A stretch of DNA of 64,000 nt from Bacteriovoracaceae bacterium (GTDB lineage Bacteria > Bdellovibrionota > Bacteriovoracia > Bacteriovoracales > Bacteriovoracaceae). The stretch is from contig OZ244226.1 in assembly GCA_965217035.1 (NCBI GenBank), forward strand, positions 848,146 through 912,145, read 5' to 3'. Below the pieces are notes generated by a model that searched no databases, was not told the DNA's origin, and saw only the letters and a program-made list of their open reading frames with translations. The number at the start of each line of letters is the position of its first letter. Position 1 is the stretch's first letter. Both the position numbers and the translations under genes were made by a program. Positions 17,461-40,600 of this stretch are shown one piece after another.

Positions 17461-17693
17461 TTAAAAAAACCCGTTTTTCTCCAGTTCAAAAAGTGACATA
17501 CTCTTTGAACAACGAAGCGTATCTCGAGTTCCTTTCCCACTTCCGTTCAACCTTTTAATCTCAACAAAGTAATATGGAAAAACATAACTGAAATAACTCA
17601 AACTCGCCTTTGATTTGCCTTTACCGTTTACAAACATTTCTTGAGAATAAACGGAAACTGAGAAAACAAAGTTAATAAAATCAAAGCTTTCAT
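17461..17693 (-). pseudogene. small secreted protein gene with apparent -1 frameshift (or 1-nt assembly error) inside the signal peptide
   Basis: The ATG at 17693 (ATGA overlap with the TIGR02147 stop) reads MKALILLTLFSQFPFILKKCL*. The -1 frame reads ...INFVFSVSVYSQEMFVNGKGKSKASLSYFSYVFPYYFVEIKRLNGSGKGTRDTLRCSKSMSLFELEKNGFF*, with stop at 17461. Joining at TTA-A gives a textbook signal peptide, MKALILLNFVFSVSVYSQ. Confidence 0.35.
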
Positions 17694-18436
17694 TGTATAT
17701 TCTCTTTAGTTAATGGAAAAAAACTTAAACAAAGCTCATAGAGAGCGTCAGGATCTTCTTTTTCATCCATCAGGCTTGCGAACTCACGACGGAATTTCTT
17801 TAAAAGTTCTTTTGCCTTAGGAATATTCTCTTTTTTAATGGAAACCATCATCGAAGAGTGATCTCTTATTTCAACAGGGTCATTTTCAGCAGACTCCATC
17901 GAAAGTTTTAAAAGTTCAAGTTGGTAGTTTCTTCTAGCGAGATTAGTAGAACTACTTGTAATATTTGAAGTATGCCCAGAAGTATTATCCACCCATTCTT
18001 CATCTTCATCTTTTGTAATGAGTTTTTGTTTTTTTAATTTTTCAATCGTAAAACTCGCCTCTTCTTTTGAAATTCCTAACTTTCTTGAAATCCAACTAGA
18101 AGCAAGCCTAAAATCTGAAGACTTCGTTAACTCTAGAACAGCATCGGCATGCCACTTCGAACTGATTTCCAATTCATCAAGTTGGATCAATTGATAAGAA
18201 AGCTCTTCTGAGACCGACAGTTTTTGATCGATTTCAAGCTTATCAATAATGGTTTGCCTTACCTTACCTACTAATTTTCTTTTTCCACTCAAGACCTGAG
18301 ATAAAGAAGTTGGAGACACTTCTAAGTAAGAGGCAAATGCTCTAAGTGAGTATCGATGGTTAAGTGATTTCCTTCTTTTGAACTCAAAATCAAGAAATGA
18401 AAGAATGCCGTCATCAGTTGATTCATTTGATTGCAT
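17690..18436 (-). CDS. TIGR02147-family (DUF4423) HTH protein
   Basis: 248 aa. HRYSLRAFASYLEVSPTSLSQVLSGKRKL is the hallmark N-terminal HTH of this family. It is a paralog of 39758..40600. Confidence 0.7.
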   Translation of the reverse strand: MQSNESTDDGILSFLDFEFKRRKSLNHRYSLRAFASYLEVSPTSLSQVLSGKRKLVGKVRQTIIDKLEIDQKLSVSEELSYQLIQLDELEISSKWHADAVLELTKSSDFRLASSWISRKLGISKEEASFTIEKLKKQKLITKDEDEEWVDNTSGHTSNITSSSTNLARRNYQLELLKLSMESAENDPVEIRDHSSMMVSIKKENIPKAKELLKKFRREFASLMDEKEDPDALYELCLSFFPLTKENIQ

Positions 18437-20145: not shown

Positions 20146-20661
20146 ATGAATCTTATGTTTATTAAAGGAGCCTTTAAAAGCCCCCTATTAACCATAGGGA
20201 TCATCATGATGACGATTTTCGTCTTCCAGCTTAGAGAGCAGGGTTTTTTTGGAAAGTCTAGATTTCGTACTACATCCTGCACTGGAACGATCGCTATTCT
20301 AAAGAAATACCAGAAAGATTATTGGGATCTCGATTGTGATGAAAATACAATGATCCTCAGTATCAACTATCTCCGTTCTGAATACTTGGGTCAATTGGAC
20401 CAAATGAAAGCTAAGGATACGGTTCGCTCTTTTCTTTATAAAGATCTTGCGAATACTTTGACGACGATTGCTGTTCGCTCACCTAATGAGCTCTTAGAAC
20501 GAGTTGATATTATCCGTCTTCAACTTAAACTTCCACAACTTACGGTCAATGTTATTACCGAAGGAAAAGATATCGCTCCTCTTTATCAAATGCGAGATAC
20601 AAAAAATATCGCCAATCTTCTTAAAGAGACTGTCCAGGTTCAAGAATTGTGGAACGAATAA
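20146..20661 (+). CDS. membrane-anchored protein, unknown function
   Basis: 171 aa. ATG start. Single N-terminal hydrophobic helix SPLLTIGIIMMTIFVF. Confidence 0.5.
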   Translation: MNLMFIKGAFKSPLLTIGIIMMTIFVFQLREQGFFGKSRFRTTSCTGTIAILKKYQKDYWDLDCDENTMILSINYLRSEYLGQLDQMKAKDTVRSFLYKDLANTLTTIAVRSPNELLERVDIIRLQLKLPQLTVNVITEGKDIAPLYQMRDTKNIANLLKETVQVQELWNE

Positions 20662-21728
20662 TTGGTCTTCTTCTCACCTTTGGTCTTCCCTATCTTTATC
20701 TAAAAAAAGAAGAAAAAAATAAATTTATAAATCTCTTCGGCAGTGTTGCCCTTTGCTATCTCTCTGGTGTTCTTATGAGTTTTTTCTTTTCTCCTTATAT
20801 CGGGAAAGGAATTATCCAATCGACCACTGAAGCGACGCTTGTTCTTTCAATTCCGTTATTGCTCTTGAATACAGATCTTAAACATCTCTGGAAGATTACT
20901 CCTAAAATGGTGATTGCTTTTATCATTGCGATGGTCACTGTTATAATCTCAGTCTTTACTATTTCAGCTCTTTTCAAAGGGAAGATTGAAAATCTCTCGA
21001 TGCTGGCCGCTTCTGTCGCTGCTCTTTTTACAGGTGGAACTGTCAATTTAAGCTCTATCTATATGGCACTCGATATTGATCAGAATATGTATATCACAAT
21101 AGCAGCAAGTGATTTTTTAACAGGTGCAATCTATTTCCTTATCACATTAAAGATTTGTTCTTACCTAAAAACCAAGACGACACAAACCCAATCAGTGGTA
21201 TCGGATTATATTCTCTTCAGTAAAAAATCAGGTTTCTATCTTTTTTATACGGTTTTAATCAATATCATTATTGTCGGAGCATCGATGCTCTTATTCGGTA
21301 AGCTAAATGCGACTTTTATCATTTGCGGCCTTACGACTTTCGGAGTCCTCGCAACTCAAAAGCTAAAACTCACTGAAAAGAAAAAAGGTGAGAACCTTGG
21401 AGAATACTTTCTTATGGTTTTTTGCTTGGCCGTAGGACTCCAGGTGGATTTGAACCAATTTAACAGTGAGTCGCTTGTTATCATCTATTTCTTCTTAAGT
21501 GTGATGGGTCTTCATGCCCTCCTCTTCTTTCCCATTGCCAAGCTTACAAAACTTCCAATGGATCAATCCTTTATCGCTCATATTGCAGCCATCTTTGGAC
21601 CTCCGTTTGTTGTTATCATTTCTAAGAATATGAGACGTGAAGATCTGATGGCACCAGGCATCGCAGTGGGAAGCTTGGGAATTGCGGTTGGTACCTTTAT
21701 CGGGCTTATGATATTTAAGCTGGTATGA
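20649..21728 (+). CDS. polytopic integral membrane protein (possibly DUF819-like)
   Basis: 359 aa. GTG start overlapping the previous gene by 13 nt. About 10 hydrophobic helices throughout. The family assignment is only an impression. Confidence 0.45.
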   Translation: MERIIGLLLTFGLPYLYLKKEEKNKFINLFGSVALCYLSGVLMSFFFSPYIGKGIIQSTTEATLVLSIPLLLLNTDLKHLWKITPKMVIAFIIAMVTVIISVFTISALFKGKIENLSMLAASVAALFTGGTVNLSSIYMALDIDQNMYITIAASDFLTGAIYFLITLKICSYLKTKTTQTQSVVSDYILFSKKSGFYLFYTVLINIIIVGASMLLFGKLNATFIICGLTTFGVLATQKLKLTEKKKGENLGEYFLMVFCLAVGLQVDLNQFNSESLVIIYFFLSVMGLHALLFFPIAKLTKLPMDQSFIAHIAAIFGPPFVVIISKNMRREDLMAPGIAVGSLGIAVGTFIGLMIFKLV

Positions 21729-22276
21729 TTCCTCAATTAGAAACAGAACGACTTATATTAAGAGATATCAAAAAAGAAGACCTTCCGATTTGGCAAAAGT
21801 ATTTCAACAACTGGGAAGTTATCAGACATTTAAGTGCTCATGTTCCCTGGCCTTATCCCGATGATGGAGTAGAGTTTTTTTATAATAGCTCTATTCTTCC
21901 CAATCAAGGAAAAACTCAATATCACTGGACTATCACTTTAAAAAATAATCCTGATGAACTTATTGGATCCGTCACTCTGTACTTTGAAGATTCTATTCAA
22001 GAAAATAGAGGTTTCTGGTTAGCTCAACCATTTTGGGGAAAGGGAATAATGACCGAAGCTTGTGAAGCTGTAAATCGTTTTGCCTTTGAAGATTTAAAAC
22101 AAGAAAAACTAATCTTTTGCAATGCTGTTGGAAACAATCGCTCTCGTCGAGTAAAAGAAAAAACAGGGGCTAGATTTTTAAGAATAGAACCCTATACTTT
22201 TGTCGATCCAAATCTGACGGAACACGAACTCTGGGAACTCACCAAAGAAGATTGGCTTAAAATGCAAAATAATTAA
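21725..22276 (+). CDS. GNAT family N-acetyltransferase (RimJ/RimL-like)
   Basis: 183 aa. LETERLILRDIKKEDL is the typical opening of Acetyltransf_3/RimJ-like proteins. WGKGIMTEA is the acetyl-CoA loop. ATGA overlap with the upstream gene. Confidence 0.8.
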   Translation: MIPQLETERLILRDIKKEDLPIWQKYFNNWEVIRHLSAHVPWPYPDDGVEFFYNSSILPNQGKTQYHWTITLKNNPDELIGSVTLYFEDSIQENRGFWLAQPFWGKGIMTEACEAVNRFAFEDLKQEKLIFCNAVGNNRSRRVKEKTGARFLRIEPYTFVDPNLTEHELWELTKEDWLKMQNN

Positions 22277-22431
22277 TTTCTAGCTCACTCTATTTTTATG
22301 CTTCTTTTTTTTAGCACCTTTACCAGTGGCTACCTTACAAACACCTGACAATCATCTGACCATCCCTTCATTGGCTTTTGCCCAGACCCTAGTAAACTGA
22401 TCACAAGACAAATCCATAGGAGATGGTTTCA

Positions 22432-23121
22432 ATGAAAAAAATGAATTTGCTTTTGTGTGTCCTTGCTGCCAACACAATCATCATGCTGAGCGTTTTCTCT
22501 AATCCTGCGGTGAAGAAAACGTGCAGTGACATTGCTTCTTGCTTAGAACTCTCATCCCGAATCACCGGCACCAAGTATATCTACGGCAAGGACATTAAAG
22601 GCAAAATTAATTTTTCAAAAAACTTTGTCATTAATAAGACAAACGTTGATCGAACCATCTCCCAGGTTTTGTACACGAATGGCTACACTCGCATTCCTTC
22701 AGGAGAAAATACTTTTCAAATTATTAGTGCTCGCGATATTCGCTATACTCCGGTTCCAACTTTTGAAATATTTAAAGATAAAATTCCAGAAAATCATGAC
22801 TACTTCATGGCAAACTATAAATTAAAAAACCCTTATATTGTTAATGAAATCGTCCGCAATTTCCGACCATTTATGTCCAGATATGGAAGAATACTCGATG
22901 TGAAAAAGCCTGGCATGATTATCATCACTGACACAGGAAAAAATATTAATCGCTTAGCCAAACTTATTACTTTCCTAGACAAAGACCTCAACGATGATGA
23001 AAAAGAGCAATATGAAGAGCGGAATGAAAAACGACGAAAGCTCGAGCTTGTTAAAACTAAAAACTGTTCTCATTTAGAAGCGAAAATCGACAAACTAGAA
23101 ATGTTGATAAGTAAGAAATAA
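22432..23121 (+). CDS. secreted protein with secretin N-domain (GspD/PilQ N0-N1-like) and coiled-coil tail; no secretin pore domain
   Basis: SQVLYTNGYTRIPSGENTFQIISARDI and PGMIIITDTGKNINRLAKLITFLD match the repeated N-domain signatures of secretins. The ATG at 22432 has AGGAG 9 nt upstream; the track start at 22423 abuts the SD. Signal peptide MKKMNLLLCVLAANTIIMLSVFS. Confidence 0.5.
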   Translation: MKKMNLLLCVLAANTIIMLSVFSNPAVKKTCSDIASCLELSSRITGTKYIYGKDIKGKINFSKNFVINKTNVDRTISQVLYTNGYTRIPSGENTFQIISARDIRYTPVPTFEIFKDKIPENHDYFMANYKLKNPYIVNEIVRNFRPFMSRYGRILDVKKPGMIIITDTGKNINRLAKLITFLDKDLNDDEKEQYEERNEKRRKLELVKTKNCSHLEAKIDKLEMLISKK

Positions 23122-23215
23122 CTTGCACAGCGCGATAAACATCCTTTCTTCTGCTTTCCACTAAAGCCCGGTTCTTTTATCATAGATGATATCAAATCAT
23201 ATACAAGGACAATCC

Positions 23216-24652
23216 ATGGATCTCTTATTCCCTGAAAAAAAATCAACCAAAGATGACATTCTCGGGAAATTAAAAACAATGAAAGAAAAAGATGTGAAGT
23301 GGGAAAATGCTCGCGCCTTTTCATTAGTCTATGGGGCAGACCAAGACGTCTATGAGGTCCTGAAAGAGTCTCATAATATGTTCATCTCAACTAATGCCTT
23401 AAACCCAACGGCCTTCCCTTCTTTAAAAACAATGGAGAATGAAGTTGTTAGCATGATGAAATCTTTACTTGGTAACGAAGAATGTGCAGGCTCTATGACT
23501 TCAGGTGGAACTGAAAGTATTTTAATGGCCGTTAAGACAGCACGAGAATGGGCAAGAAAAAACAAACCTAAGATAAAAAACCCTGAACTCATTGCTCCTG
23601 CAAGTGTTCACCCCGCTTTCAATAAAGCCTGTCATTATTTTGGAATAAAATTAGTGATCACCCCAGTTGATCCTAAAACTTATGAAGCTGATGTTGAAGC
23701 CATGAAAAAAGCCATCAACAAAAATACAATTATGTTAGTAGGTTCTTCTCCGCAATACCCTCAAGGCGTTATTGACCCAATCGAAAAGATAGGAGCACTC
23801 GCTTTAGAGAATAATATCTTATGCCATTCTGACTCTTGTATTGGTGGAGTTGTTCTTGGTTTTTGGAGAAGAATGGGATTTGATATTCCCGCTTTTGATC
23901 TCAATGTTCCAGGTGTCACTTCTCTTTCTGTTGATCTTCACAAATATGGTTATACAGCAAAGGGAGCATCAGTTGTTCTGTATAAATCCCGAGAACTCAG
24001 GAAGCATCAATTCTATTGCACAACAGGTTGGACTGGAGGAATTTATATTTCACCAACAGCTCTTGGAACCAGAGGTGGTGGTTCGATCGCATCGGCTTGG
24101 GCCGTTATGAACTATCTTGGAGTCGAAGGTTATAAAGAGATTTTTCAATCCATTTATGAAACAAGAAATAAACTCGTTGAACAGATTAAAGAAGTCGAAG
24201 GATTGTTTATTCTTGGCGAACCCAATTCAAGCTGTATCTCTTTTAGTGCAAAAGATTGCGATATCTATGTTCTTGCTGATTATATGAATGAAAAGGGTTG
24301 GGTTATGGATAAAAATACTTTCCCTCCGAGTCTTCACATGTCGATCATGAAAGCTCATGCCAACGTGATTGAGGACTTCATCACAGACCTTAAAGAATGC
24401 CATGAAAAAGCTAAACTTGAATATAAACCTAGCTCTAAGTTCAAGGCTGGCTTCATGAATACGATGATTAGAGTTATGCCTAAAGGACTCATCAAAAAAT
24501 TAGCTGGAGAACAAGTTGCAGAAGTTGGGAATGAGGATACGCCTGGAGCAACTAAGACGGCCGGTATTTATGGTATGGTTGGAAGTCTTGAAGCTAAAGG
24601 GGCTCTTCAAGATGTTGCGATCGAACTTTTAGATAATTTATATAATAATTAG
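23216..24652 (+). CDS. PLP-dependent group II decarboxylase-fold enzyme, sphingosine-1-phosphate lyase-like
   Basis: The length and layout match SPL/GadA-type enzymes. GSMTSGGTESILMAV is present, and the PLP-lysine motif SVDLHKYGYTAKGASVVLY is close to the S.D.HKYG motif of S1P lyases. The ATG at 23216 has AAGGA 7 nt upstream; the track start at 23186 is also ATG. Confidence 0.7.
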   Translation: MDLLFPEKKSTKDDILGKLKTMKEKDVKWENARAFSLVYGADQDVYEVLKESHNMFISTNALNPTAFPSLKTMENEVVSMMKSLLGNEECAGSMTSGGTESILMAVKTAREWARKNKPKIKNPELIAPASVHPAFNKACHYFGIKLVITPVDPKTYEADVEAMKKAINKNTIMLVGSSPQYPQGVIDPIEKIGALALENNILCHSDSCIGGVVLGFWRRMGFDIPAFDLNVPGVTSLSVDLHKYGYTAKGASVVLYKSRELRKHQFYCTTGWTGGIYISPTALGTRGGGSIASAWAVMNYLGVEGYKEIFQSIYETRNKLVEQIKEVEGLFILGEPNSSCISFSAKDCDIYVLADYMNEKGWVMDKNTFPPSLHMSIMKAHANVIEDFITDLKECHEKAKLEYKPSSKFKAGFMNTMIRVMPKGLIKKLAGEQVAEVGNEDTPGATKTAGIYGMVGSLEAKGALQDVAIELLDNLYNN

Positions 24653-24660
24653 GATTCTTG

Positions 24661-26031
24661 ATGGAAATTACGAATGCTGCTGAAAAACAAAGAGAATACT
24701 TTTTTAAACAAAAAACCTACCCTTACGAAGTTAGAAAAGCCAACTTAAAAAAACTCTATAATCTTTTAAAAGAGAATGAATCACGTTTTGCTGAGGCCAT
24801 GCAAAAAGATCTCTGGAAAAGTCCTAGCCAATCTTACGGAAGTGAGATGGGAATCGTTTACAAAGAATTAAGAAAGGCACAAAGAAAACTCTGGTCTTGG
24901 ATGAAACCAAAAAGAGTTTGGGACACACTTGCAAATTTTCCAAGCTCGAATTTTATCTACCCAAGTCCCTACGGTTCAGCTTTAATCATTGCTCCTTGGA
25001 ACTATCCTTATCTCCTTTGCTTTGATCCTTTAATTGGAGCTATAGCAGGAGGAAATTGTGCGATCTTAAAACCCTCGGAACTTACTCCTAATGTTTCTGC
25101 TGTTATTGAAGATATTATTAACAGTAATTTTGATCCTGAGTTTCTTCACGTTTATACCGGAGGAGTTGATATCAGCCAGAAGCTTCTCGCTCAAAACTTT
25201 GACAATATCTTCTTCACAGGAAGTACACCAGTGGGAAAAATCATCATGGAGGCTGCTTCTAAACACCTCACACCCGTAACCCTTGAACTTGGAGGAAAAA
25301 GTCCCTGTTTAATTGATAGAACAGCGGATCTAGATGTTACAGTAAGAAGGATTGTTTGGGGAAAGTTTATGAACTGCGGGCAAACCTGCGTTGCACCCGA
25401 TTATCTCTTAGTCGATGAAACGATTCAAAATCAGGTTTATCAAAAAATTCAAGAAGTTTTAAAAAGTTTCTACGGCTCCAATATTGAACAATCAGAAGAC
25501 TATGGTCGAATTGTGAGCGAAAAGCACTTTGACCGTCTAGTGAAACTTGCTGAAGACTCCGGTTACTCAAAAGAAAATATGAAGATAAATCGTGAAGAGA
25601 GATTTCTTGCTCCGATCATCATTTCAGATTGTACTTGGAATTCACCAATCATGCAGGATGAAATTTTTGGACCTGTACTCCCTATGATTCCAGTAAAAAG
25701 CATTAAGGATTCTTTAGAGCAATTAAAAAAACTCCCACCTCCTCTGGCATTCTATTATTTTGGGAAAGATAAAGAACTTGAGAAAAGGATCTTAGAGGAG
25801 ATGAGATTTGGAGGTGGCTGTATCAATGATACAATCATGCACCTTGCGAACTCCAATTTATCCTTTGGAGGAGTTAAAGACAGTGGAATTGGTCGTTACC
25901 ATGGCCGAAAATCTTTCGAAGCTTTTAGCTATGAAAAATGTATTGTAAAAAAAGAATTCTGGCCTGATTTACCCCTGAGGTATCCTCCGCTCAAAGATCG
26001 AATTAAATATATTCGAAAAGTGTTTGGTTAA
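24661..26031 (+). CDS. aldehyde dehydrogenase, class 3 (fatty-aldehyde dehydrogenase-like)
   Basis: ~456 aa. The short N-terminus is typical of ALDH3. Catalytic Glu motif LELGGKSP, catalytic Cys motif NCGQTCVAPDY, and EIFGPVLP are present. The track start at 24658 is TTG; the ATG is at 24661. Confidence 0.85.
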   Translation: MEITNAAEKQREYFFKQKTYPYEVRKANLKKLYNLLKENESRFAEAMQKDLWKSPSQSYGSEMGIVYKELRKAQRKLWSWMKPKRVWDTLANFPSSNFIYPSPYGSALIIAPWNYPYLLCFDPLIGAIAGGNCAILKPSELTPNVSAVIEDIINSNFDPEFLHVYTGGVDISQKLLAQNFDNIFFTGSTPVGKIIMEAASKHLTPVTLELGGKSPCLIDRTADLDVTVRRIVWGKFMNCGQTCVAPDYLLVDETIQNQVYQKIQEVLKSFYGSNIEQSEDYGRIVSEKHFDRLVKLAEDSGYSKENMKINREERFLAPIIISDCTWNSPIMQDEIFGPVLPMIPVKSIKDSLEQLKKLPPPLAFYYFGKDKELEKRILEEMRFGGGCINDTIMHLANSNLSFGGVKDSGIGRYHGRKSFEAFSYEKCIVKKEFWPDLPLRYPPLKDRIKYIRKVFG

Positions 26032-26356
26032 AACTGTTTCAAGCTTTGCAAATGTTGGCGAACTTGATTCTGTTGAATTTCTTTATGCTAAACGACAAGG
26101 CCTAGGTCAAACAATTGGAGAAGTTGTTGTTTGTGGATCAGGGAAGGTAATGCTTGATAATCAAAGCTTTACAGCTCCGGATGTAAGTCTTCACCCTTTC
26201 AGTCTTTCTACCGAAGATTATATTGCTCAAGATTTAACAGAAATGGTTAAAGCGGATCAAGGCATCGTGGTTTGTGGAAAAGGTTATTACCGAAAACGAG
26301 TAGGAATCACTGAAACTCTTCGCATTCACCTTATAGATATCTACGAGCAAAAATAA
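26024..26356 (+). CDS. hypothetical protein
   Basis: 110-aa ORF with a TTG start overlapping the ALDH stop by 8 nt. No recognisable motif. Followed by a terminator. Confidence 0.35.
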   Translation: MVKTVSSFANVGELDSVEFLYAKRQGLGQTIGEVVVCGSGKVMLDNQSFTAPDVSLHPFSLSTEDYIAQDLTEMVKADQGIVVCGKGYYRKRVGITETLRIHLIDIYEQK

Positions 26357-26375: not shown

Positions 26376-26408
26376 AAAAAAAGCCGAGGCATAGATCTCG
26401 GTTTTTTT
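26376..26408. terminator. bidirectional rho-independent terminator between convergent genes
   Basis: A7 (26376-26382), GCCGAGG stem (26383-26389), 6-nt loop, TCTCGGT (26396-26402), T-run to 26408. The stem has 5 Watson-Crick pairs plus G-U wobbles. The A-run and T-run allow function on both strands. Confidence 0.55.
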
Positions 26409-26731: not shown

Positions 26732-28147
26732 TTATTGGAGTGAACGTGCTCTATAACAACTGAAAACCTTGTTAAATACCTGATCGTATCCTGAAGTGAA
26801 AAAACCTTTATCTATTCTCTGAGAGCTAATAACGGATTTCATCGTATTGTTATAATCATTCCAAAGCACCCCATTTTCATTATGAGGTTCTATCTCATAA
26901 GAACCTCCTCTTTGAAAATAGGTCAACACCAAGCCACAGTTTAAGTAATTGATCCATGCATTTTCTGCTTCACCGACTTGTTGTGTATGCTCCAGACCTA
27001 GTAAATGACCAATTTCATGAGTGTAGATAGTTCCATTCTCTTCGTAAGTATTCCCTCTCTTAAGACCTCTATATTCAGAGACGACTGTCGCCTGACTTGA
27101 AAATGGGAGACGATTGACTCTTGCAATTCCTGCAACCGGGCCAAGAATAGAGTTTACAAAAACAAGCGTCACAGCTCCTTTCTGGTTATAACGAGAAATG
27201 AGTTTATCGTAATCAATACAGTTAGATGAAGTAGGGTCACACATTGTATACAATTCATTATCTTCAATTTCTTCGACAGTAAGTTTATAAAAACCATTAA
27301 AGCTTTGATCTCCTATCTTTAACTTGGAGTTCAAAACTCGAAGGGCCTCATCAGCATCTGCTTCGATATCACTAGAAAGACTCACATCAGTACTTTTTAG
27401 AAAAACTAACTTCAATGGAATTAGCCCTTCCGAAGACTCTTGGAGTGCTGTAACACTATTAAAAAGCGTTACGATCCCACTTGCTGTTAATCCCGTAGAG
27501 TCTGAAATGAGATAATTAAAATCAATACTACTATTAACCGGGAGATCAAAGCTCTGGTCCGGAGTAAAGACTATCTTTGAATTCTCAATTGTAATACTCG
27601 CATCATCAACCGAATCAACAGAAACAATCGTCAATAAATCTCCATCAACATCAATATCATTGGCCAGAACATCAATTGTTATTGAAGATTGCCCCTCATA
27701 GCGGACATGATCGATAAAAGTCGTGGGAGCATCATATTTTCCATAAACATTAAAGTTAACGTCTCCAACAAGCAAAGCATTCGATGTTTTATCTTTCAGA
27801 TAAATATTAACAGTCTCTTTTCCAACAAAATGAGGAAAAGGTTCAATATTTAAAGTTTGATTCCCATCTGAAAGAGAAGTTTCAAATTCCTTAGAATATA
27901 CTGAGGTAACTTCATATCTTTGAAAAAATGAACTGATTCCGAATACCTCTCCTATATTATAACTATGCTGGGAATCTTCTTGGATAGGAATTCCGTCACC
28001 ATTCGATAACCCCGGATTCAATCCGTTAATCCCTCCATCATCAGAGACTTTAAAACTACAAGAGGCAAACATGATAAATAGGAATATTAACAATAGTTTT
28101 TTCAATTTCGATTCTTCTCGATTTCTATCATAACGGCTCATAAACAT
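26732..28147 (-). CDS. secreted metzincin-type zinc metalloprotease lipoprotein with cadherin/VCBS-like domain
   Basis: HEIGHLLGLEH is the HExxHxxGxxH metzincin signature. VLANDIDVDGDLLTIVSVD is a cadherin/VCBS-like repeat signature. Lipobox LFIMFASC. The track start at 28219 is TTG; the ATG at 28147 (MFMSRYDRNREESKLKKLLLIFLFIMFASC) is preferred. Confidence 0.7.
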   Translation of the reverse strand: MFMSRYDRNREESKLKKLLLIFLFIMFASCSFKVSDDGGINGLNPGLSNGDGIPIQEDSQHSYNIGEVFGISSFFQRYEVTSVYSKEFETSLSDGNQTLNIEPFPHFVGKETVNIYLKDKTSNALLVGDVNFNVYGKYDAPTTFIDHVRYEGQSSITIDVLANDIDVDGDLLTIVSVDSVDDASITIENSKIVFTPDQSFDLPVNSSIDFNYLISDSTGLTASGIVTLFNSVTALQESSEGLIPLKLVFLKSTDVSLSSDIEADADEALRVLNSKLKIGDQSFNGFYKLTVEEIEDNELYTMCDPTSSNCIDYDKLISRYNQKGAVTLVFVNSILGPVAGIARVNRLPFSSQATVVSEYRGLKRGNTYEENGTIYTHEIGHLLGLEHTQQVGEAENAWINYLNCGLVLTYFQRGGSYEIEPHNENGVLWNDYNNTMKSVISSQRIDKGFFTSGYDQVFNKVFSCYRARSLQ

Positions 28148-28539
28148 TTGAAATCTATAAATATCTTTATCGGAATAAAACCGAGAACTTATAACTTCGT
28201 TTCCAAAAAATAATGACAATGTTTATTGGCATCTTGCCTACGAGAACAAATTTATAAACCGGAGTGATTTGATCATAAAATCAAGAAGGCCTTTAAAAAC
28301 CCCGATCTTAGTATTGTGTAATACTAGAAGCTACTTATTTCTAGCATAATGGAAATTAATGGACGACTGCTACTGACTATGCTTCCAAACAAAATATCCT
28401 TGTTGAACTCAATACTTTTATTAATGACTATGACTCAAGTTCGCAAACAAAGAATCTCCATCTTCGTGTCTATTTAAGCTCTGATACTTCGAGTGAATTT
28501 ACTATTGATTCAATAGACATAGACGCAACCCTAAGGTAA

Positions 28540-29194: not shown

Positions 29195-30238
29195 ATGTTC
29201 AAAATAAGTAATCTCTTCTTACTTCTACTCTTTTCTTGCTCGATTCATCAAAACTCGAGAGATGAAAATAAAAGCATGACTAAGAAGGAAACGGTCGAAG
29301 ATTTAAAAGTACTCATTTATGCCTTAAAAAAGACTTATGCCGGTCAATACTTCGCTCCAGGCATAAACATAAAAGAACTTTATCGACAATTAAGGAAAAT
29401 TCCTAAAAAAAGAAATCGCCAAATATTACTGGAAAGACTCCAAGCTGTTTTTGCAACTCTACCGGATCGTAGTATAAAAGCTCTAAGCTATCTCAATGAT
29501 CCAAAAGATAAAAAAATTAAACCCTGGAAGTTTGAAGAAACTTCATCGATACAGAAAGAGGGGGCCTACCTCAAAATACCAAGTTTCAAATCTTTAAATT
29601 CTCCTTATTGGGACCGCTTAAAAGATGAACTTGATAAAAATATGAGAAAGAAGTCCTTTCTGATTCTAGACTTGAGGAATTCGGATGGTGATGACGATTC
29701 TGTGGGAATATACCTTGCTCGCTATTTTAATGGAGGAGTTCTCCGTCACCCTATTATTCGCCAACATCATATAAGAACAAAACAATCCTTGAGACTCCTT
29801 AAAAACTATTGGAGCTTGATGAGTCCCAACCAAAAATTTCCCTTCCCTGATTACAAGAAAGGTGAATCGAAAATCTTACCGATAGAATTTCGAAGAGATC
29901 AAAATTCTTATTCTAAAAAATATTCTCCTAATAAAAATCTTTATATTCTTGTAGATGAATCTTGTAAAAAACCTTGTGAAACAACTCTCTATGCTCTAGA
30001 AAAGAATCCTTTAACAAAGATTATCGGGACCAAAACAAAAGGTCAGATTCATTTTGGACATCCAGGACTTTTATTATTACCCAACTCGCAGATTAGTGTT
30101 CTTATCCCTACTTCCTATAATGAGTTTGCAGACGGACGCTTTGAAGAAAAAAGAGGTTTTACACCCGACTTCAATTGTGTGACGAAACAAGGATCGGACG
30201 ATAAGCTGCTTCAACAGCTTTGTGAGACCTATTGGTAA
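29195..30238 (+). CDS. peptidase S41-family (tail-specific protease-like) lipoprotein
   Basis: FLILDLRNSDGDDDSVG sits where S41 enzymes carry LIxDLRxNxGG. Lipobox LLLLFSC after the ATG at 29195; the track start at 29144 is TTG. The 3' end overlaps the convergent PlsC-family gene by 68 nt. Confidence 0.55.
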   Translation: MFKISNLFLLLLFSCSIHQNSRDENKSMTKKETVEDLKVLIYALKKTYAGQYFAPGINIKELYRQLRKIPKKRNRQILLERLQAVFATLPDRSIKALSYLNDPKDKKIKPWKFEETSSIQKEGAYLKIPSFKSLNSPYWDRLKDELDKNMRKKSFLILDLRNSDGDDDSVGIYLARYFNGGVLRHPIIRQHHIRTKQSLRLLKNYWSLMSPNQKFPFPDYKKGESKILPIEFRRDQNSYSKKYSPNKNLYILVDESCKKPCETTLYALEKNPLTKIIGTKTKGQIHFGHPGLLLLPNSQISVLIPTSYNEFADGRFEEKRGFTPDFNCVTKQGSDDKLLQQLCETYW

Positions 30239-30905
30239 GAGCCTCAATATCTTCAAAATCAGACGTTTCAAGAATTTCGAGAAAGTTCACTTCAACTTCG
30301 ACACTGAAAAAAGTTAAAACTTTAAAAAAATGATCGGCCATCGTCATTTCTCCATACCAAAAGAGGAAGTCTTTCGTATGCTGGTCAACTGGCTCTCCAT
30401 TAATCTTTGTGTAGTTCACAACGTGAAGCAGAACCGGAGTGTTTTGATTCATCGCAGGCTGAAACATCGGCTTACGAAAAGGAAGAACTCCCGTTCCATC
30501 GCCTGTTGTTGCTTCAGCATAAAGAGCAACGCTTACTCCGTTCGCAAGGGATTTTTCGATATCCTTAAGTTCCTTTAATCGATCGTTTGGATCTCTTTTT
30601 TCTTTTCTTCTTTCAACAAAAACACATCCAGCCATTTCAGTTAAGAAGCCAACTCCCAAGGTTTCCTTCATTTCAAAAGAAGTAATAAAGCTGACAGGAT
30701 AAATAGATGAGAGAACAAAAATATCAAGATAAGAAAGATGATTTCCAACAACAAGGAAGTTTTGATGATTCTCTGTTAACTTTTTCCCTTTCACAACTCT
30801 TTTTATATTAAGAATAAAGCAAATAGTTTTAGTAATGAGAGAAAGCCATCTTCCGAGATATTTTCTTATTCCATAAGGGTTTAATTTATAAAAAGGATAA
30901 AACAA
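30171..30905 (-). CDS. lysophospholipid/1-acyl-glycerol-3-phosphate acyltransferase family (PlsC/AGPAT-like) protein
   Basis: The HX4D motif VVGNHLSYLD, block III YAEATTGDG, and VLPFRKP are present. 30905 is a TTG start. The frame stays open upstream to 31007 and encodes a hydrophobic helix with no canonical start (see findings). Confidence 0.8.
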   Translation of the reverse strand: MFYPFYKLNPYGIRKYLGRWLSLITKTICFILNIKRVVKGKKLTENHQNFLVVGNHLSYLDIFVLSSIYPVSFITSFEMKETLGVGFLTEMAGCVFVERRKEKRDPNDRLKELKDIEKSLANGVSVALYAEATTGDGTGVLPFRKPMFQPAMNQNTPVLLHVVNYTKINGEPVDQHTKDFLFWYGEMTMADHFFKVLTFFSVEVEVNFLEILETSDFEDIEALTNRSHKAVEAAYRPILVSSHN

Positions 30906-30994
30906 TAATGAAATTGCTATATAAAGAAAAAGAGTAACGAGAAAAAGAGAAAGCTTTAACGCTATTAATAAATAAGAAATAATCTCTCTCCTCT

Positions 30995-31786
30995 CTATGC
31001 TTGGACTTCAGACTCCTTAAAATTATGCCATGCAATTTTTAACTTTTTAATAGCTTTTAAGAAGGTTCTAGATACCACGCTCCACAAGCTCATAGTTCCA
31101 ATTTGAAGGACCTCATCGCCTGTATTGAAATTAATTAGTTTCTTATAAAAAATATTATATAAACTCTCTCGATGATAAAACTGGAGGTCACCTTCCGATT
31201 TTTCAAAAATATTTCCAGTCACACTATTTTTGAAAATATTTTTATCATCATCAAACTTTGCAGACTCAGGAATATACATTTCAGCTCTAAAATTTTTACT
31301 AATTTCTTGAACAAGAATATAATGCTGAAGACTAGGGCAAACTTGGTAACGAGGAGATGGATAAACCTCATCAAAATATTTTGCAACATTACCTAAACTT
31401 GATAAAACACAAGCAAGATTCGAAATCCAAACCTTCTTGAAAAGTGCATTTCTTAAAAGATAGCCCGTTAATAATTTTGCGACTAGTTTTTGTGAAACTT
31501 TTCGACCTCGATACTGACTCTTAACACATGTAAGCCCTAGATGAAGAATTTTTCTTCCTCCAATATGAAAGATTAGAGAAGAGACAAAACCGATAGGGAC
31601 TTTTCCATCGTGAGCGATAACAACCATGTTCTCAACATCTTGACTTTGATTGTCTGAAAAAATTTGATAATTAGGAACTTCTCCAAGACATTCCAAGGCA
31701 ACTTCCTCCATGTCTCCTCTTAAAGCTTGAAATGATTTATCTGAAAGTCTTCTATTGGCCGAGTTGTGGAACTTGTAAGTAATCAT
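30995..31786 (-). CDS. GNAT-fold acyltransferase, unknown substrate
   Basis: 263 aa. LHLGLTCVKSQYRGRKVSQKLVAKL fits the GNAT motif A (Q/RxxGxG/A-like acyl-CoA loop). AGGAGG SD upstream of the ATG. Lies immediately upstream of the PlsC-family gene on the same strand. Confidence 0.5.
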   Translation of the reverse strand: MITYKFHNSANRRLSDKSFQALRGDMEEVALECLGEVPNYQIFSDNQSQDVENMVVIAHDGKVPIGFVSSLIFHIGGRKILHLGLTCVKSQYRGRKVSQKLVAKLLTGYLLRNALFKKVWISNLACVLSSLGNVAKYFDEVYPSPRYQVCPSLQHYILVQEISKNFRAEMYIPESAKFDDDKNIFKNSVTGNIFEKSEGDLQFYHRESLYNIFYKKLINFNTGDEVLQIGTMSLWSVVSRTFLKAIKKLKIAWHNFKESEVQA

Positions 31787-39757: not shown

Positions 39758-40600
39758 TTGAATAAAATAAATCCAAATTCTATTTATATTCAAAAAAGCC
39801 CCGATGAAGTTTTACGGGGCTATTGGTTAAAAAAACAAAAAGAAAACCATAGGTTTTCTATTCGAGCTTGGGCAAAACACTTGGGCTTCAAGACCCATAG
39901 TCATCTTCATCAAATGATTCATGGCAAAAGATTAATCCCTAAAAAGTATGTTTCTGTTCTTTGTGATAATATGGGACTCAACTTAGAAGAAAGCCAATAT
40001 TTTAATCTTCTTGTAGATCTTCAACGGTCAAAATCAGAAGAAGAAAAAATCTTCTTTCTAAAAAAGCTTAAAGACTTAAGGGGTAACGATAGTTTAGATT
40101 TTCGAATCATAGATGAATTTCAAATGCTCAGTAATCCACTTCACTTCCTCTTATTAGAAATTCTTTCTCTCAGTTCGGAACCGCAACCTGTCATCAAGCT
40201 AAAAAATCGCCTTCGTTTTAATTATTCTCTATTAGAAATAAGAGAAGCAATTGAAGTATTACAAAAACTTAATATCATCACTAAAGATGAAAATAATCAC
40301 TTCTCGCGCACAAGTGAGCATTTCTATACTAAAAATGATATTCCTAATAAATCGATCCAGCTCTTTCATCAAAATTGTTCAAAACTTGCTCAAATTGCTG
40401 TCCAAGAGCAAGAACAAGAAATCAGAGAGTTTAATGGAACGACTTTTAATATAAAAAGAGAACGTATTAACGAAGCCAAAATCGCTATCAGAGAATTCAG
40501 AGAAGAATTCATCCGAAAATATTCAAGTGATCAATACCAAGGTGATCAAACTTATCATTTAAATATGAACTTTTTTGCGGTAACAAAGGATCCATCATGA
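39758..40600 (+). CDS. TIGR02147-family (DUF4423) HTH protein, second paralog
   Basis: 280 aa. HRFSIRAWAKHLGFKTHSHLHQMIHGKRLIP parallels HRYSLRAFASYLEVSPTSLSQVLSGKRKL of 17690..18436. The only in-frame start before the HTH is the TTG at 39758. Confidence 0.65.
   Translation: MNKINPNSIYIQKSPDEVLRGYWLKKQKENHRFSIRAWAKHLGFKTHSHLHQMIHGKRLIPKKYVSVLCDNMGLNLEESQYFNLLVDLQRSKSEEEKIFFLKKLKDLRGNDSLDFRIIDEFQMLSNPLHFLLLEILSLSSEPQPVIKLKNRLRFNYSLLEIREAIEVLQKLNIITKDENNHFSRTSEHFYTKNDIPNKSIQLFHQNCSKLAQIAVQEQEQEIREFNGTTFNIKRERINEAKIAIREFREEFIRKYSSDQYQGDQTYHLNMNFFAVTKDPS

What the first reader, a model, noticed from the sequence alone, without database searches (positions are those of the whole stretch)
23216..26356. 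Sphingosine-1-phosphate-lyase-like enzyme in an operon with a class-3 (fatty) aldehyde dehydrogenase
Seen in sequence: a group II PLP enzyme with the S1P-lyase-like lysine motif SVDLHKYGY is followed, fewer than 10 nt downstream, by an ALDH3-type enzyme (LELGGKSP, GQTCVAPDY). A small overlapping ORF and a terminator at 26376-26408 close the unit.

Established: in eukaryotes SGPL1 cleaves sphingosine-1-phosphate to phosphoethanolamine plus hexadecenal, and ALDH3A2 oxidises that aldehyde. A few bacterial S1P lyases are known (Legionella, Burkholderia, Symbiobacterium). Bacteriovorax-type predators are known to make sphingophosphonolipids.

Inference: this pair would encode two consecutive steps of sphingoid-base catabolism in one bacterial operon. 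An LCB5/DAGK-family kinase at 55622 is a candidate for the preceding phosphorylation. The function could be turnover of the cell's own sphingolipid or use of prey or host lipid.
Basis: partly seen in the sequence, partly recalled or inferred. Interest (0 to 1): 0.65.

Follow-up and report, generated by a model that had tools for sequence, protein, structure and literature searches.

The report
Bacterial sphingoid-base lyase plus aldehyde dehydrogenase operon
A predatory-type bacterium (Bacteriovoracia) carries, back to back, a sphingosine-1-phosphate-lyase-like enzyme and a class-3 aldehyde dehydrogenase, next to an uncharacterised transporter; the set most likely breaks down sphingolipid backbones, which is a sensible but untested new arrangement of known enzymes.

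Summary
Nothing here has been tested biochemically.**

- **PLP enzyme (23216-24652).** It sits firmly among solved S1P lyases (human SGPL1 E 2e-100, StSPL 2e-93). MfnA (1e-35) and GAD (4e-20) are far weaker. All PLP-binding residues are kept. Two substrate-phosphate-pocket positions differ across the whole clade (A103->L, H129->N).
- **Aldehyde dehydrogenase (24661-26031).** This is a class-3 ALDH with an intact Asn/Glu/Cys set. It starts 8 nt after the lyase stop.
- **Small ORF and terminator.** An orphan 110-aa ORF overlaps the ALDH end by 8 nt. A strong terminator follows at 26377-26408.
- **Conservation of the pair.** The lyase-ALDH3 pair is kept in four other Bacteriovoracia/Halobacteriovoraceae genomes (lyase identity 58-90%), two of them with different flanks. 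About 80 other lyase loci lack it.
- **A missed partner.** The more widely conserved neighbour is a DUF819 (CPA/AT) transporter.
- **Sister lineages.** In Halobacteriovorax/Bdellovibrio-type loci the lyase instead shares an operon with an alkaline-ceramidase-family gene. This independently points to sphingolipid catabolism.
- **Kinase at 55622.** It is a generic YegS/BmrU-type lipid kinase in an unrelated cluster, with no link to the lyase.
- **Missing context.** No SPT or ceramidase lies in the window.
- **Rating.** New member of a known kind; moderate interest.

The parts
20146..20661 (+). 171-aa protein of unknown function. It is the first gene of the possible long transcription unit and overlaps the DUF819 start by 13 nt.
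   Evidence: ORF; no Pfam family. It is conserved directly upstream of DUF819 in L001 (83% identity) and L003 (51%).
20649..21728 (+). DUF819 membrane protein, a predicted secondary transporter of the CPA/AT superfamily. It is the most widely conserved neighbour of this lyase clade.
   Evidence: PF05684, E 2e-24. The family is modelled on the CitS fold and classed as CPA/AT re-entrant type (PMC8396727). It lies next to the lyase in L001-L004, L006, L011, L022, L058, L071, L081, L082, L084, L085 and L086.
21725..22276 (+). GNAT N-acetyltransferase (Acetyltransf_3), with a 4-nt overlap onto DUF819. It is a lineage-specific insert between transporter and lyase.
   Evidence: PF13302, E 3e-27. Only remnants (aa 1-35 and 170-183) remain in the 90%-identical relative L001, and it is absent in L003, L081 and L082.
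22423..23121 (+). 232-aa protein with a GspD-like N0 domain. It is a lineage-specific insert and probably not part of the pathway.
   Evidence: PF21305, E 2e-7. Only a fragment (aa 2-49) remains in L001 and it is absent elsewhere.
23216..24652 (+). Sphingosine-1-phosphate-lyase-like PLP enzyme, 478 aa, soluble with no N-terminal membrane anchor. The PLP lysine is K243 in SVDLHKYGY.
   Evidence: PDB phmmer gives SGPL1 2e-100, StSPL 2e-93, Dpl1 1e-92 and Burkholderia S1PL 2e-92, against MfnA 1e-35 and GAD 4e-20. The predicted structure (pLDDT 81) has S1P lyases as its top 22 Foldseek hits, TM 0.80/0.86. Active-site map.
24661..26031 (+). Class-3 aldehyde dehydrogenase, 456 aa, soluble. Catalytic motifs are APWNYP (Asn), LELGGKSP (Glu) and GQTCVAPDY (Cys).
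   Evidence: PF00171, E 2e-82. Best PDB matches are 6k0z 6e-133, ALDH3A1 7e-121, ALDH3A2/FALDH 1.5e-119 and rat class-3 1ad3 1.5e-117; class 1/2 enzymes reach only about 1e-42. Orthologues follow the lyase in L001, L003, L081 and L082.
26024..26356 (+). Orphan 110-aa ORF with a TTG start and an 8-nt overlap onto the ALDH stop. It is probably coding but specific to this genome.
   Evidence: Codon-usage score 0.34, like real genes. No Pfam or NCBIfam family. Only itself is found in the 5.8e9-protein database. It is absent downstream of the ALDH in L003 and L082.
26377..26408 (+). Intrinsic terminator that closes the unit. It may act in both directions, because a weaker reverse-strand match covers the same hairpin.
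   Evidence: 13-pair stem plus T-run. (-16.3 kcal/mol, z -4.5).

Best explanation
**Proposed function.** The locus is a cytoplasmic module for the last steps of sphingoid (long-chain) base breakdown.

1. The PLP enzyme binds a 1-phosphorylated 2-amino-3-hydroxy long-chain base as an external aldimine on PLP, displacing K243.
2. It cleaves the C2-C3 bond by a retro-aldol reaction. The products are phosphoethanolamine and a long-chain fatty aldehyde.
3. The translationally coupled class-3 aldehyde dehydrogenase oxidises that reactive aldehyde to the fatty acid with NAD(P)+. The acid can then be re-used or beta-oxidised.
4. The DUF819 transporter, the conserved upstream partner, most likely moves a charged or amphipathic participant across the inner membrane. 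Candidates are the phosphorylated base, a lyso-sphingolipid or phosphoethanolamine.

**Shown versus inferred.**
- Shown: family membership, active-site conservation, gene architecture and synteny.
- Inferred: the actual substrate, the chain length handled by the ALDH, co-transcription, the transporter's cargo, and whether the lipid comes from the cell's own membrane or from prey.
For: **The lyase groups with S1P lyases.**
- Its bit scores against solved S1P lyases (313-340, Legionella 205) are about 2.5-fold those against MfnA (126) and 4-fold those against GAD (75).
- A family profile gives 413-484 bits to S1P lyases and 185 to MfnA.
- It fails the NCBIfam cut-offs for MfnA (253 < 299) and GAD (108 < 380).
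- The predicted fold matches 22 S1P lyase chains before any decarboxylase.

**Active-site residues (roles from Table 3 of PMC6148460; mapping).**
- PLP-binding set: K311/H310/D274/C276/H201/G168/T169 are all identical, and S353 is Thr.
- Substrate-phosphate residues Y105, N126 and K317 are kept.
- A YGM motif corresponding to the substrate-entry Tyr is invariant in the family.

**The dehydrogenase is class 3** with intact catalytic residues.

**Gene architecture.** There is an 8-nt gap with the Shine-Dalgarno sequence inside the lyase stop, and a single strong terminator downstream.

**Synteny.**
- The DUF819-lyase-ALDH3 triad recurs in L001, L003, L081 and L082.
- L081 and L082 have different surrounding genes.

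**Independent pointer to sphingolipids.** In L021, L022, L030, L058, L071 and L085, homologous lyases share an operon or locus with a PF05875 alkaline-ceramidase-family protein (E 3e-16).

**Known chemistry.**
- S1P lyase gives hexadecenal plus phosphoethanolamine.
- Human FALDH has been used as a coupling enzyme for bacterial S1P lyases in vitro (PMC6148460; PMC5234717).
- Bacteriovorax stolpii has SPT and sphingophosphonolipids (PMC6148460).
Against: - **No assayed member.** No member of this bacterial clade has been assayed. It is only 38% identical to StSPL and human SGPL1, which are 45% identical to each other.
- **Altered phosphate pocket.** Two phosphate-pocket positions are invariantly different (A103->L, H129->N). 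The phosphate-binding Tyr is Phe in about half of the clade, although it is Tyr in the window.
- **No kinase.** No kinase that would make the 1-phosphate substrate is linked to the lyase in any of about 86 loci.
- **No synthesis or ceramidase genes.** No SPT, ceramide synthase or ceramidase lies in the 64-kb window.
- **Narrow distribution of the ALDH.** The ALDH partner is confined to one lineage. 75 of the 80 genome loci have no ALDH of any class within 6 kb.
- **Non-specific family.** Class-3 ALDHs also act on aromatic and medium-chain aldehydes; the best NCBIfam hit is benzaldehyde dehydrogenase MdlD, below its cut-off.
- **Transporter type.** A CitS-like transporter is a more usual partner for small soluble solutes than for lipids.
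Confidence: 0.58

Rival explanations
1. The chemistry is the same (PLP retro-aldol cleavage releasing a long-chain aldehyde that the ALDH oxidises), but the substrate carries a different C1 head group. One example is the sulfonate of capnine-type sulfonolipid bases, which would give taurine plus an aldehyde. Another is a phosphonate analogue. Such a substrate would need no kinase.
For: - The clade has invariant changes in the substrate-phosphate pocket (A103->L, H129->N, Y105 Y/F).
- No kinase is conserved beside the lyase in any locus examined.
- Some loci carry a TauE/SafE-family transporter next to the lyase or the ceramidase, for example L007, L014 and L071.
- S1P lyases are reported to accept sphingosine 1-phosphonate (PMC6148460).
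Against: - The Burkholderia lyase has Thr and Gln at the same two positions and still cleaves S1P (PMC6148460 Table 3).
- K317 and N126 are invariant.
- The TauE association covers only 7 loci, and TauE-family substrates are diverse (PMC12671195).
- The sulfonolipid idea rests on my own reasoning, with no direct evidence.
Confidence: 0.12
2. The adjacency reflects shared descent and not a shared pathway. The lyase works with the DUF819 transporter, while the ALDH3 is a general detoxifier of lipid-derived or aromatic aldehydes that happens to sit downstream.
For: - The ALDH follows the lyase only in one Bacteriovoracales/Halobacteriovoraceae lineage and not in about 75 other loci.
- L003 shares extended synteny with the window, so part of the conservation is simple inheritance.
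- Class-3 ALDHs have broad substrate ranges (NCBIfam top hit MdlD).
Against: - The triad survives in L081 and L082, where both flanks differ.
- The junction is always tight: 8 nt in the window and an 11-nt overlap in L082.
- The lyase product is an aldehyde, exactly the substrate class of the downstream enzyme.
Confidence: 0.15
3. The PLP enzyme is an amino-acid decarboxylase (MfnA/GAD-like) working with DUF819 as a substrate/product antiporter, as in GadB/GadC or AspD/AspT systems.
For: - PF00282 is the top Pfam hit.
- Many homologues are auto-annotated as 'glutamate/tyrosine decarboxylase-like' or 'MfnA'.
- DUF819 belongs to the CPA/AT clan, which includes the aspartate:alanine exchanger and glutamate symporters.
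- Across phyla the lyase-like gene usually sits beside some transporter.
Against: - It falls below the NCBIfam cut-offs for MfnA and GAD.
- It is far closer to S1P lyases by sequence, profile and fold.
- The lyase-specific residues K317, N126, Y105 and the YGM tyrosine are retained.
- Sister lineages link the gene to a ceramidase.
- A decarboxylase would yield an amine, not a substrate for the coupled ALDH.
Confidence: 0.05
4. The lyase is a secreted effector that destroys S1P of a eukaryotic host, as in Legionella and Burkholderia.
For: The characterised lyases of bacterial pathogens (Legionella, Burkholderia) play this role (PMC6148460; PMC5234717).
Against: - There is no signal peptide or hydrophobic N-terminus in the sequence.
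- The gene is translationally coupled to a cytoplasmic NAD(P)-dependent ALDH and linked to an inner-membrane transporter.
- The lineage consists of environmental Bacteriovoracia.
- The clade is widespread in free-living Chloroflexota and others.
Confidence: 0.03

Closest known systems
Symbiobacterium thermophilum S1P lyase (StSPL; PDB 3MAD/3MAU)
   Same: - It is a soluble bacterial enzyme without a membrane anchor.
- It has the same fold (TM 0.81/0.85).
- The PLP lysine, His-Lys motif, Asp, Cys and stacking His are identical.
- Y105, N126 and K317 are kept.
   Different: - Identity is only 38%.
- A103 is Leu and H129 is Asn.
- The span from the end of the catalytic domain to the YGM motif is roughly 40 residues longer than in StSPL or SGPL1.
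- The window gene sits with a DUF819 transporter and an ALDH3.
Eukaryotic S1P degradation pathway: SGPL1/Dpl1 followed by ALDH3A2 (FALDH)
   Same: - The same two enzyme families would act in the same order: lyase makes the fatty aldehyde and class-3 ALDH oxidises it.
- SGPL1 is the best PDB match of the lyase (2e-100).
- ALDH3A2 is among the best matches of the dehydrogenase (1.5e-119).
   Different: - The eukaryotic enzymes are ER-membrane-anchored and encoded by unlinked genes.
- Here both are soluble-type proteins encoded 8 nt apart.
- The window ALDH ends 12 residues after the catalytic domain, so there is no room for the C-terminal membrane anchor.
Legionella LpSpl and Burkholderia S1PL2021/2025
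   Same: - They are bacterial members of the S1P lyase family.
- Burkholderia also deviates at the A103 and H129 positions (Thr, Gln) yet cleaves S1P (PMC6148460 Table 3).
   Different: - Those are virulence factors acting on host S1P in bacteria described as lacking sphingolipid synthesis.
- The window enzyme shows no secretion signal and sits in a catabolic-looking operon in an environmental predator lineage.
Ceramidase-linked lyase operons of Halobacteriovorax/Bdellovibrio-type genomes
   Same: - The lyase belongs to the same clade (44-51% identity).
- A DUF819 transporter lies nearby.
   Different: - Those loci carry an alkaline-ceramidase-family gene, a ~750-aa lipoprotein, a 243-aa secreted protein and an OMP-like protein, and no ALDH.
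- The window lineage has the ALDH3 and none of those genes.
Bacterial class-3 ALDH of PDB 6k0z (from memory: Staphylococcus aureus AldH of staphyloxanthin synthesis)
   Same: - It is the best match (6e-133).
- The alignment runs to the very C-terminus (residues 12-456 against 19-464).
- It is a soluble enzyme of about 460 aa.
   Different: - The genomic context and presumed substrate differ.
- Its identity as S. aureus AldH is my recollection, because the tool lists it only as 'Aldehyde dehydrogenase'.

Membership tests
Sphingosine-1-phosphate lyase (SGPL1/Dpl1/StSPL, EC 4.1.2.27) | Fold-type I PLP enzyme of the group II decarboxylase superfamily that is closer to solved S1P lyases than to any decarboxylase | tested here: met
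   PF00282, E 1e-18. phmmer scores are 313-340 bits to SPLs, 126 to MfnA and 75 to GAD. The family profile gives 413-484 against 185 bits. The top 22 Foldseek chains are all SPLs.
Sphingosine-1-phosphate lyase (SGPL1/Dpl1/StSPL, EC 4.1.2.27) | PLP-binding set: Schiff-base Lys (St K311) after His310, Asp274, Cys276, stacking His201, Gly168-Thr169 and Ser353 of the partner subunit | tested here: met
   The window has K243, H242, D206, C208, H132, G98 and T99. S353 is Thr285, a conservative change that is near-invariant in the clade. Residue roles come from PMC6148460 Table 3.
Sphingosine-1-phosphate lyase (SGPL1/Dpl1/StSPL, EC 4.1.2.27) | Substrate-phosphate pocket: Tyr105, Asn126, His129, Ala103 and Lys317 | tested here: inconclusive
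   Y39, N60 and K249 are conserved. A103 is Leu37 and H129 is Asn63, both invariant in 21 clade members. Y105 is Phe in about half of them. Validated Burkholderia S1PL has Thr and Gln at the two variable positions.
Sphingosine-1-phosphate lyase (SGPL1/Dpl1/StSPL, EC 4.1.2.27) | C-terminal 'substrate entry' tyrosine (St Y482, Hs Y526) in a (V/I)YGM motif | tested here: inconclusive
   The window has GIYGM with Y452. A449, Y452 and G453 are invariant in the clade. Local alignment pairs the motifs, but support is weak because the segments are short (21 and 55 of 1000 shuffles reach the score). MAFFT and HMMER misplace it because this stretch is much longer in the window clade. The model is low-confidence there.
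Sphingosine-1-phosphate lyase (SGPL1/Dpl1/StSPL, EC 4.1.2.27) | Cleavage of long-chain-base 1-phosphates to a fatty aldehyde plus phosphoethanolamine | not testable with these tools
   This needs an enzyme assay. No clade member was found characterised in the literature searched.
Tyrosine/aspartate decarboxylase MfnA and glutamate decarboxylase GAD | Score above the curated NCBIfam equivalog cut-off | tested here: not met
   TIGR03812 MfnA scores 252.9 against a cut-off of 299.4. TIGR01788 GAD scores 108.1 against a cut-off of 380.4.
Class-3 aldehyde dehydrogenase (ALDH3) | Aldedh domain whose best matches are class-3 enzymes, well separated from classes 1 and 2 | tested here: met
   PF00171, E 2e-82. 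6k0z scores 6e-133, ALDH3A1 7e-121, ALDH3A2 1.5e-119 and rat class-3 1ad3 1.5e-117. ALDH1A3 reaches only 1e-42.
Class-3 aldehyde dehydrogenase (ALDH3) | Catalytic Asn, general-base Glu and nucleophilic Cys in the conserved motifs | tested here: met
   APWNYP, LELGGKSP, GQTCVAPDY and EIFGP are present in the translation and aligned to 6k0z.
Fatty aldehyde dehydrogenase ALDH3A2 specifically | C-terminal membrane anchor and preference for long-chain aldehydes | tested here: not met
   The alignment to 4qgk covers residues 10-445, and the protein ends at 456-457, leaving no room for a transmembrane tail. Chain-length preference cannot be tested here.
Operon (single transcription unit lyase-ALDH-ORF110) | Same strand, minimal or overlapping junctions, no internal terminator, and a terminator at the end | tested here: met
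   There is an 8-nt gap and an 8-nt overlap. The only convincing + strand terminator is at 26377-26408. Actual co-transcription cannot be tested here. The unit may extend upstream to 20146.
Long-chain-base (sphingosine) kinase, for the ORF at 55622-56599 | DAGK_cat kinase that is specifically related to sphingosine kinases or linked to the lyase | tested here: not met
   DAGK_cat and YegS_C domains are present. PDB hits are only bacterial DgkB/BmrU/YegS (1e-12 to 6e-8), with no SphK at E <= 0.01. NCBIfam assigns it to the YegS/BmrU lipid kinase family, below cut-offs. It lies 29 kb from the lyase, and no homologue is near the lyase in the 80 loci.

The most novel reading that the evidence does not exclude
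The widespread bacterial clade to which this lyase belongs may not be a plain S1P lyase. It has an invariant Leu and Asn in the head-group pocket and is habitually paired with a transporter (DUF819, MFS_2, TauE or Atg22-like). Together with DUF819 it could be an uptake-and-cleavage system for exogenous sphingoid lipids taken from prey or the environment. The head group might be something other than phosphate, for example capnine-type sulfonolipid bases cleaved to taurine plus aldehyde with no kinase step. That would assign a first function to the DUF819 family and define a new bacterial route for sphingolipid or sulfonolipid scavenging.
Probability: 0.15. Interest if true: 0.7.

Novelty: new member of a known kind. 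Interest (0 to 1): 0.4.

Why it matters
**What is new.**
- Bacterial sphingolipid research has concentrated on synthesis. Breakdown is known mainly from secreted lyases of pathogens that attack host S1P.
- A cytoplasmic lyase translationally coupled to the aldehyde-removing enzyme would be a natural operon version of the eukaryotic SGPL1-ALDH3A2 exit route from sphingolipid metabolism.
- It occurs in a lineage whose relatives (Bacteriovorax stolpii) make sphingophosphonolipids.

**What it offers.**
- It provides soluble, easily expressed enzymes for testing bacterial long-chain-base turnover.
- It gives the uncharacterised DUF819 transporter family a concrete, testable functional context.
- Together with the ceramidase-linked sister loci, it outlines a modular sphingolipid catabolic locus in Bdellovibrionota.

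**Limits.** Both enzymes belong to known families and do the expected chemistry, so the finding extends known biology and does not overturn it.

Tried and rejected
- **SPT elsewhere in the window.** The 410-aa Aminotran_1_2 protein at 2338-3570 looked like a candidate. It is an aspartate aminotransferase (best PDB hits AspAT, 9e-55), so it was rejected.
- **Ceramidase and other ceramidase-operon genes in the window.** I searched the window by tblastn for homologues of the ceramidase, the ~750-aa lipoprotein, the 243-aa protein, the OMP-like protein, the MFS_2 transporter and TauE. None was found at E <= 1e-3.
- **Homologues of the 110-aa ORF.** A search of the 5.8e9-protein database found none but itself. 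There was no hit in L003 or L082 either.
- **Kinase linked to the lyase.** Neither tblastn with the window kinase against 80 loci nor the Pfam lists for six further loci showed a DAGK-type kinase.
- **Promoter evidence for a separate lyase transcript.** One 9/12 match lies at 23155-23183, but promoter-like sites are no more frequent than in shuffles, so it is not informative.
- **Literature.** Searches for a described bacterial S1P-lyase/FALDH operon or Bdellovibrionota sphingolipid catabolism found nothing relevant.
- **Multiple alignment of the C-terminal tyrosine.** MAFFT misaligned it because the PDB-derived sequences were truncated and the region is much longer in the window protein. A local alignment was used instead.
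- **Not attempted.** I did not build an explicit phylogenetic tree with decarboxylase outgroups, because outgroup sequences could not be retrieved. Placement rests on score gaps.

Full report
**1. Observation**

- **PLP enzyme.** The ORF carrying SVDLHKYGY ends at 24652. Its likely start is the ATG at 23216. That start gives 478 aa, the length of the 90%-identical homologue P0001, and is preceded by AAGGA.
- **ALDH junction.** The lyase stop codon TAG (24650-24652) lies inside TAGGA, which can serve as the ribosome-binding site for the ALDH ATG at 24661. The gap is therefore 8 nt.
- **ALDH.** The gene (to 26031) carries APWNYP, LELGGKSP, GQTCVAPDY and EIFGP.
- **Small ORF.** A 110-aa ORF (26024-26356, TTG) overlaps the ALDH stop by 8 nt.
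- **Terminator.** The hairpin plus T-run at 26377-26408 folds at -16.3 kcal/mol, z -4.5.

**2. Identity of the PLP enzyme**

The enzyme groups with S1P lyases by every measure I could run.
- **Sequence against solved structures.**

| Structure | E-value |
|---|---|
| Human SGPL1 | 2e-100 |
| S. thermophilum StSPL | 2e-93 |
| Yeast Dpl1 | 1e-92 |
| Burkholderia S1PL | 2e-92 |
| A. fumigatus SPL | 4e-85 |
| Legionella LpSpl | 2e-59 |
| MfnA | 1e-35 |
| Best GAD | 4e-20 |

- **Profile.** A 21-sequence family profile widens the gap: 413-484 bits for most S1P lyases (Legionella 286) against 185 for MfnA.
- **Curated models.** The protein fails the NCBIfam cut-offs for MfnA and GAD.
- **Fold.** An AlphaFold model (pLDDT 81, pTM 0.80) has 22 S1P lyase chains as its top Foldseek hits (TM 0.80/0.86). 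Decarboxylases follow.

**3. Active site**

I used the residue table of the Nat Prod Rep review (PMC6148460, Table 3) and an alignment with StSPL and human sequences recovered from the HMMER output.
- **PLP machinery.** It is intact: K243, H242, D206, C208, H132, G98 and T99. Ser353 is Thr.
- **Substrate-phosphate pocket, kept.** Y39 (Y105), N60 (N126) and K249 (K317) are conserved.
- **Substrate-phosphate pocket, changed.** A103 is Leu and H129 is Asn, invariantly across 21 clade members. The Tyr is Phe in about half of them.
- **Precedent.** Burkholderia S1PL, which cleaves S1P, also differs at these two positions (Thr, Gln).
- **Substrate-entry Tyr.** It appears as an invariant YGM motif. 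The window has a much longer stretch (roughly 40 extra residues) between the catalytic domain and this motif than StSPL or SGPL1, and the motif lies in a low-confidence part of the model.
- **Overall distance.** The window protein is 38% identical to both StSPL and SGPL1, which are 45% identical to each other.

I conclude that this is a distinct, unassayed bacterial clade inside the S1P lyase family.

**4. The dehydrogenase**

- **Family.** The protein hits PF00171 at 2e-82. Its best structural relatives are 6k0z (6e-133), ALDH3A1, ALDH3A2/FALDH and rat class 3 (about 1e-117 to 1e-121). Class 1/2 enzymes score about 1e-42.
- **Membrane anchor.** The protein ends 12 residues past the catalytic domain, so it lacks the FALDH membrane anchor.
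- **Substrate.** No NCBIfam equivalog is reached (best MdlD, 380 < 550). Class 3 membership is therefore shown, while 'fatty' specificity is inferred.

**5. Context and conservation**

*The ALDH pairing.*
- The closest relatives come from Bacteriovoracia, Bacteriovoracales and Halobacteriovoraceae MAGs.
- Among 80 genome loci holding lyase homologues, an ALDH of any class follows the lyase in L001 (90% identity) and L003 (58%). In L002 the contig ends too early to tell.
- Longer contigs confirm the pairing in L082 (59% lyase identity; ALDH 51%, overlapping the lyase by 11 nt). It is probably also present in L081 (67%; partial ALDH, 54%).
- The flanking genes in L081 and L082 differ from those in the window, so the pairing is not just block synteny.

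*The transporter partner.*
- A DUF819 membrane protein (PF05684) lies immediately upstream in all of these loci.
- DUF819 also lies next to the lyase in Oligoflexales, Planctomycetota, Caldilineaceae, Halobacteriovorax, Bdellovibrio and unassigned contigs.
- DUF819 is an uncharacterised CPA/AT-superfamily transporter modelled on CitS (PMC8396727).
- In the window, a GNAT and a GspD-N0-like gene sit between DUF819 and the lyase. In L001 both survive only as remnants, so they are dispensable.
- No + strand terminator-like site separates 20146 from 26377, except two weak intragenic matches. The unit may therefore comprise seven genes.

**6. Independent pointer to sphingolipids**

- **Ceramidase-linked loci.** In L021, L022, L030, L058 and L085 the gene order is a ~750-aa lipoprotein, the lyase, a 243-aa secreted protein, an alkaline-ceramidase-family protein (PF05875, E 3e-16) and an OMP-like protein. 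Where the contig extends upstream, a TetR-like gene and DUF819 are transcribed divergently. L071 holds the same families in a different order, without the 243-aa protein.
- **Meaning.** A ceramidase acts upstream of the lyase in the known pathway, so this association supports a sphingoid substrate for the clade.
- **Chloroflexota loci.** In 23 of these the partner is instead an MFS_2 transporter. Others carry TauE or Atg22-like transporters.

**7. What is missing**

- **Kinase.** No kinase is linked to the lyase anywhere I looked. It sits in a five-gene lipid cluster with a thioester-reductase-type SDR, an acyl-ACP-reductase-like protein, an acyl-activating enzyme and a UbiA-like protein.
- **Synthesis genes.** The 64-kb window has no SPT (the aminotransferase at 2338-3570 is an AspAT), no ceramide synthase and no ceramidase.
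- **Small ORF.** The 110-aa ORF is an orphan, though its codon usage resembles that of real genes.

**8. Mechanism proposed**

- **Inferred from family chemistry.** A long-chain-base 1-phosphate forms an external aldimine on PLP. Retro-aldol cleavage of C2-C3 releases phosphoethanolamine and a fatty aldehyde. The coupled ALDH3 oxidises the aldehyde to the acid, limiting its toxicity. DUF819 moves a charged participant across the membrane.
- **Support from published practice.** Bacterial S1P lyases have been assayed by coupling to human FALDH (PMC5234717).
- **Confidence.** About 0.58.
- **Rivals.** The alternatives are a different head group, a non-functional adjacency, a decarboxylase/antiporter pair and a secreted effector. 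They are weighed in their own sections.

**9. Comparison and novelty**

- **Known families.** Both enzymes belong to known families and the two-step route is textbook in eukaryotes.
- **Prior bacterial work.** Bacterial S1P lyases are known from Symbiobacterium, Legionella and Burkholderia.
- **Literature.** I found no description of a lyase-ALDH3 operon, of the DUF819 association or of the ceramidase-linked loci in the library searched.
- **Rating.** New member of a known kind, in a new and sensible genomic arrangement; interest 0.4.

Noticed in passing
window 55622-61961 (+): Five tightly packed lipid-type genes whose product is unknown. They are a YegS/BmrU-type lipid kinase, a thioester-reductase-type SDR (NAD_binding_4), a 691-aa protein whose C-terminal half resembles long-chain acyl-ACP reductase / the PigE N-terminal part, a fatty-acid-CoA-ligase-family enzyme and a UbiA-like prenyltransferase.
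   Followed up: partly
L021, L022, L030, L058, L071, L085 (for example L022:3650-10046): In Halobacteriovorax/Bdellovibrio-type genomes the lyase homologue sits in a conserved operon with a PF05875 alkaline-ceramidase-family protein, a ~750-aa lipoprotein, a 243-aa secreted protein and a 250-aa OMP-like protein. TetR and DUF819 are transcribed divergently. GNAT, DAO, HGLS-like and GDPD genes follow in L021/L022. It looks like an envelope-spanning sphingolipid uptake and breakdown locus.
   Followed up: partly
23 Chloroflexota loci, for example L018:7440-8963 and L008:3755-5242 (MFS_2 gene just downstream of the lyase): In 20 of 24 cases the lyase homologue is followed within 300 nt, on the same strand, by an MFS_2 (GPH-family) transporter (PF13347, E 2e-84 for the representative scanned, L042:8957-10399). 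Other loci have TauE/SafE or Atg22-like MFS transporters. Lyase-like genes of this clade are habitually paired with a transporter.
   Followed up: partly
window 23216-24652; alignment: There are clade-wide invariant substitutions in the substrate-phosphate pocket relative to validated S1P lyases (A103->Leu, H129->Asn; Tyr105 is Tyr or Phe). The stretch between the catalytic domain and the C-terminal YGM motif is also much longer than in StSPL or SGPL1. The clade may have altered head-group specificity.
   Followed up: partly
window 26024-26356 (+): The 110-aa ORF, translationally coupled to the ALDH, has gene-like codon usage. Its only match among 5.8 billion proteins is itself.
   Followed up: yes
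L001:5367-5791 compared with window 21725-23121: In the 90%-identical relative, the GNAT and the GspD-N0-like genes between DUF819 and the lyase survive only as short remnants (GNAT aa 1-35 and 170-183; N0 protein aa 2-49). This indicates recent gene decay at that spot.
   Followed up: partly
window 30171-31786 (-): An OlsA-like lyso-ornithine-lipid O-acyltransferase (NF052553, E 9e-31, below cut-off) lies next to a 263-aa GNAT-like protein. This may be an ornithine-lipid olsB/olsA pair.
   Followed up: no
window 17690-18436 (-) and 39758-40600 (+): Two paralogous DUF4423 proteins lie in one 64-kb window (E 2e-34 and 6e-27).
   Followed up: no
window 26732-28219 (-): A 495-aa protein combines bacterial Ig/cadherin-like domains with a zinc-metalloprotease HExxH region (M43/M10/reprolysin-like, below cut-offs). 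It is convergent with the lyase unit and conserved in L003 (41% identity).
   Followed up: no
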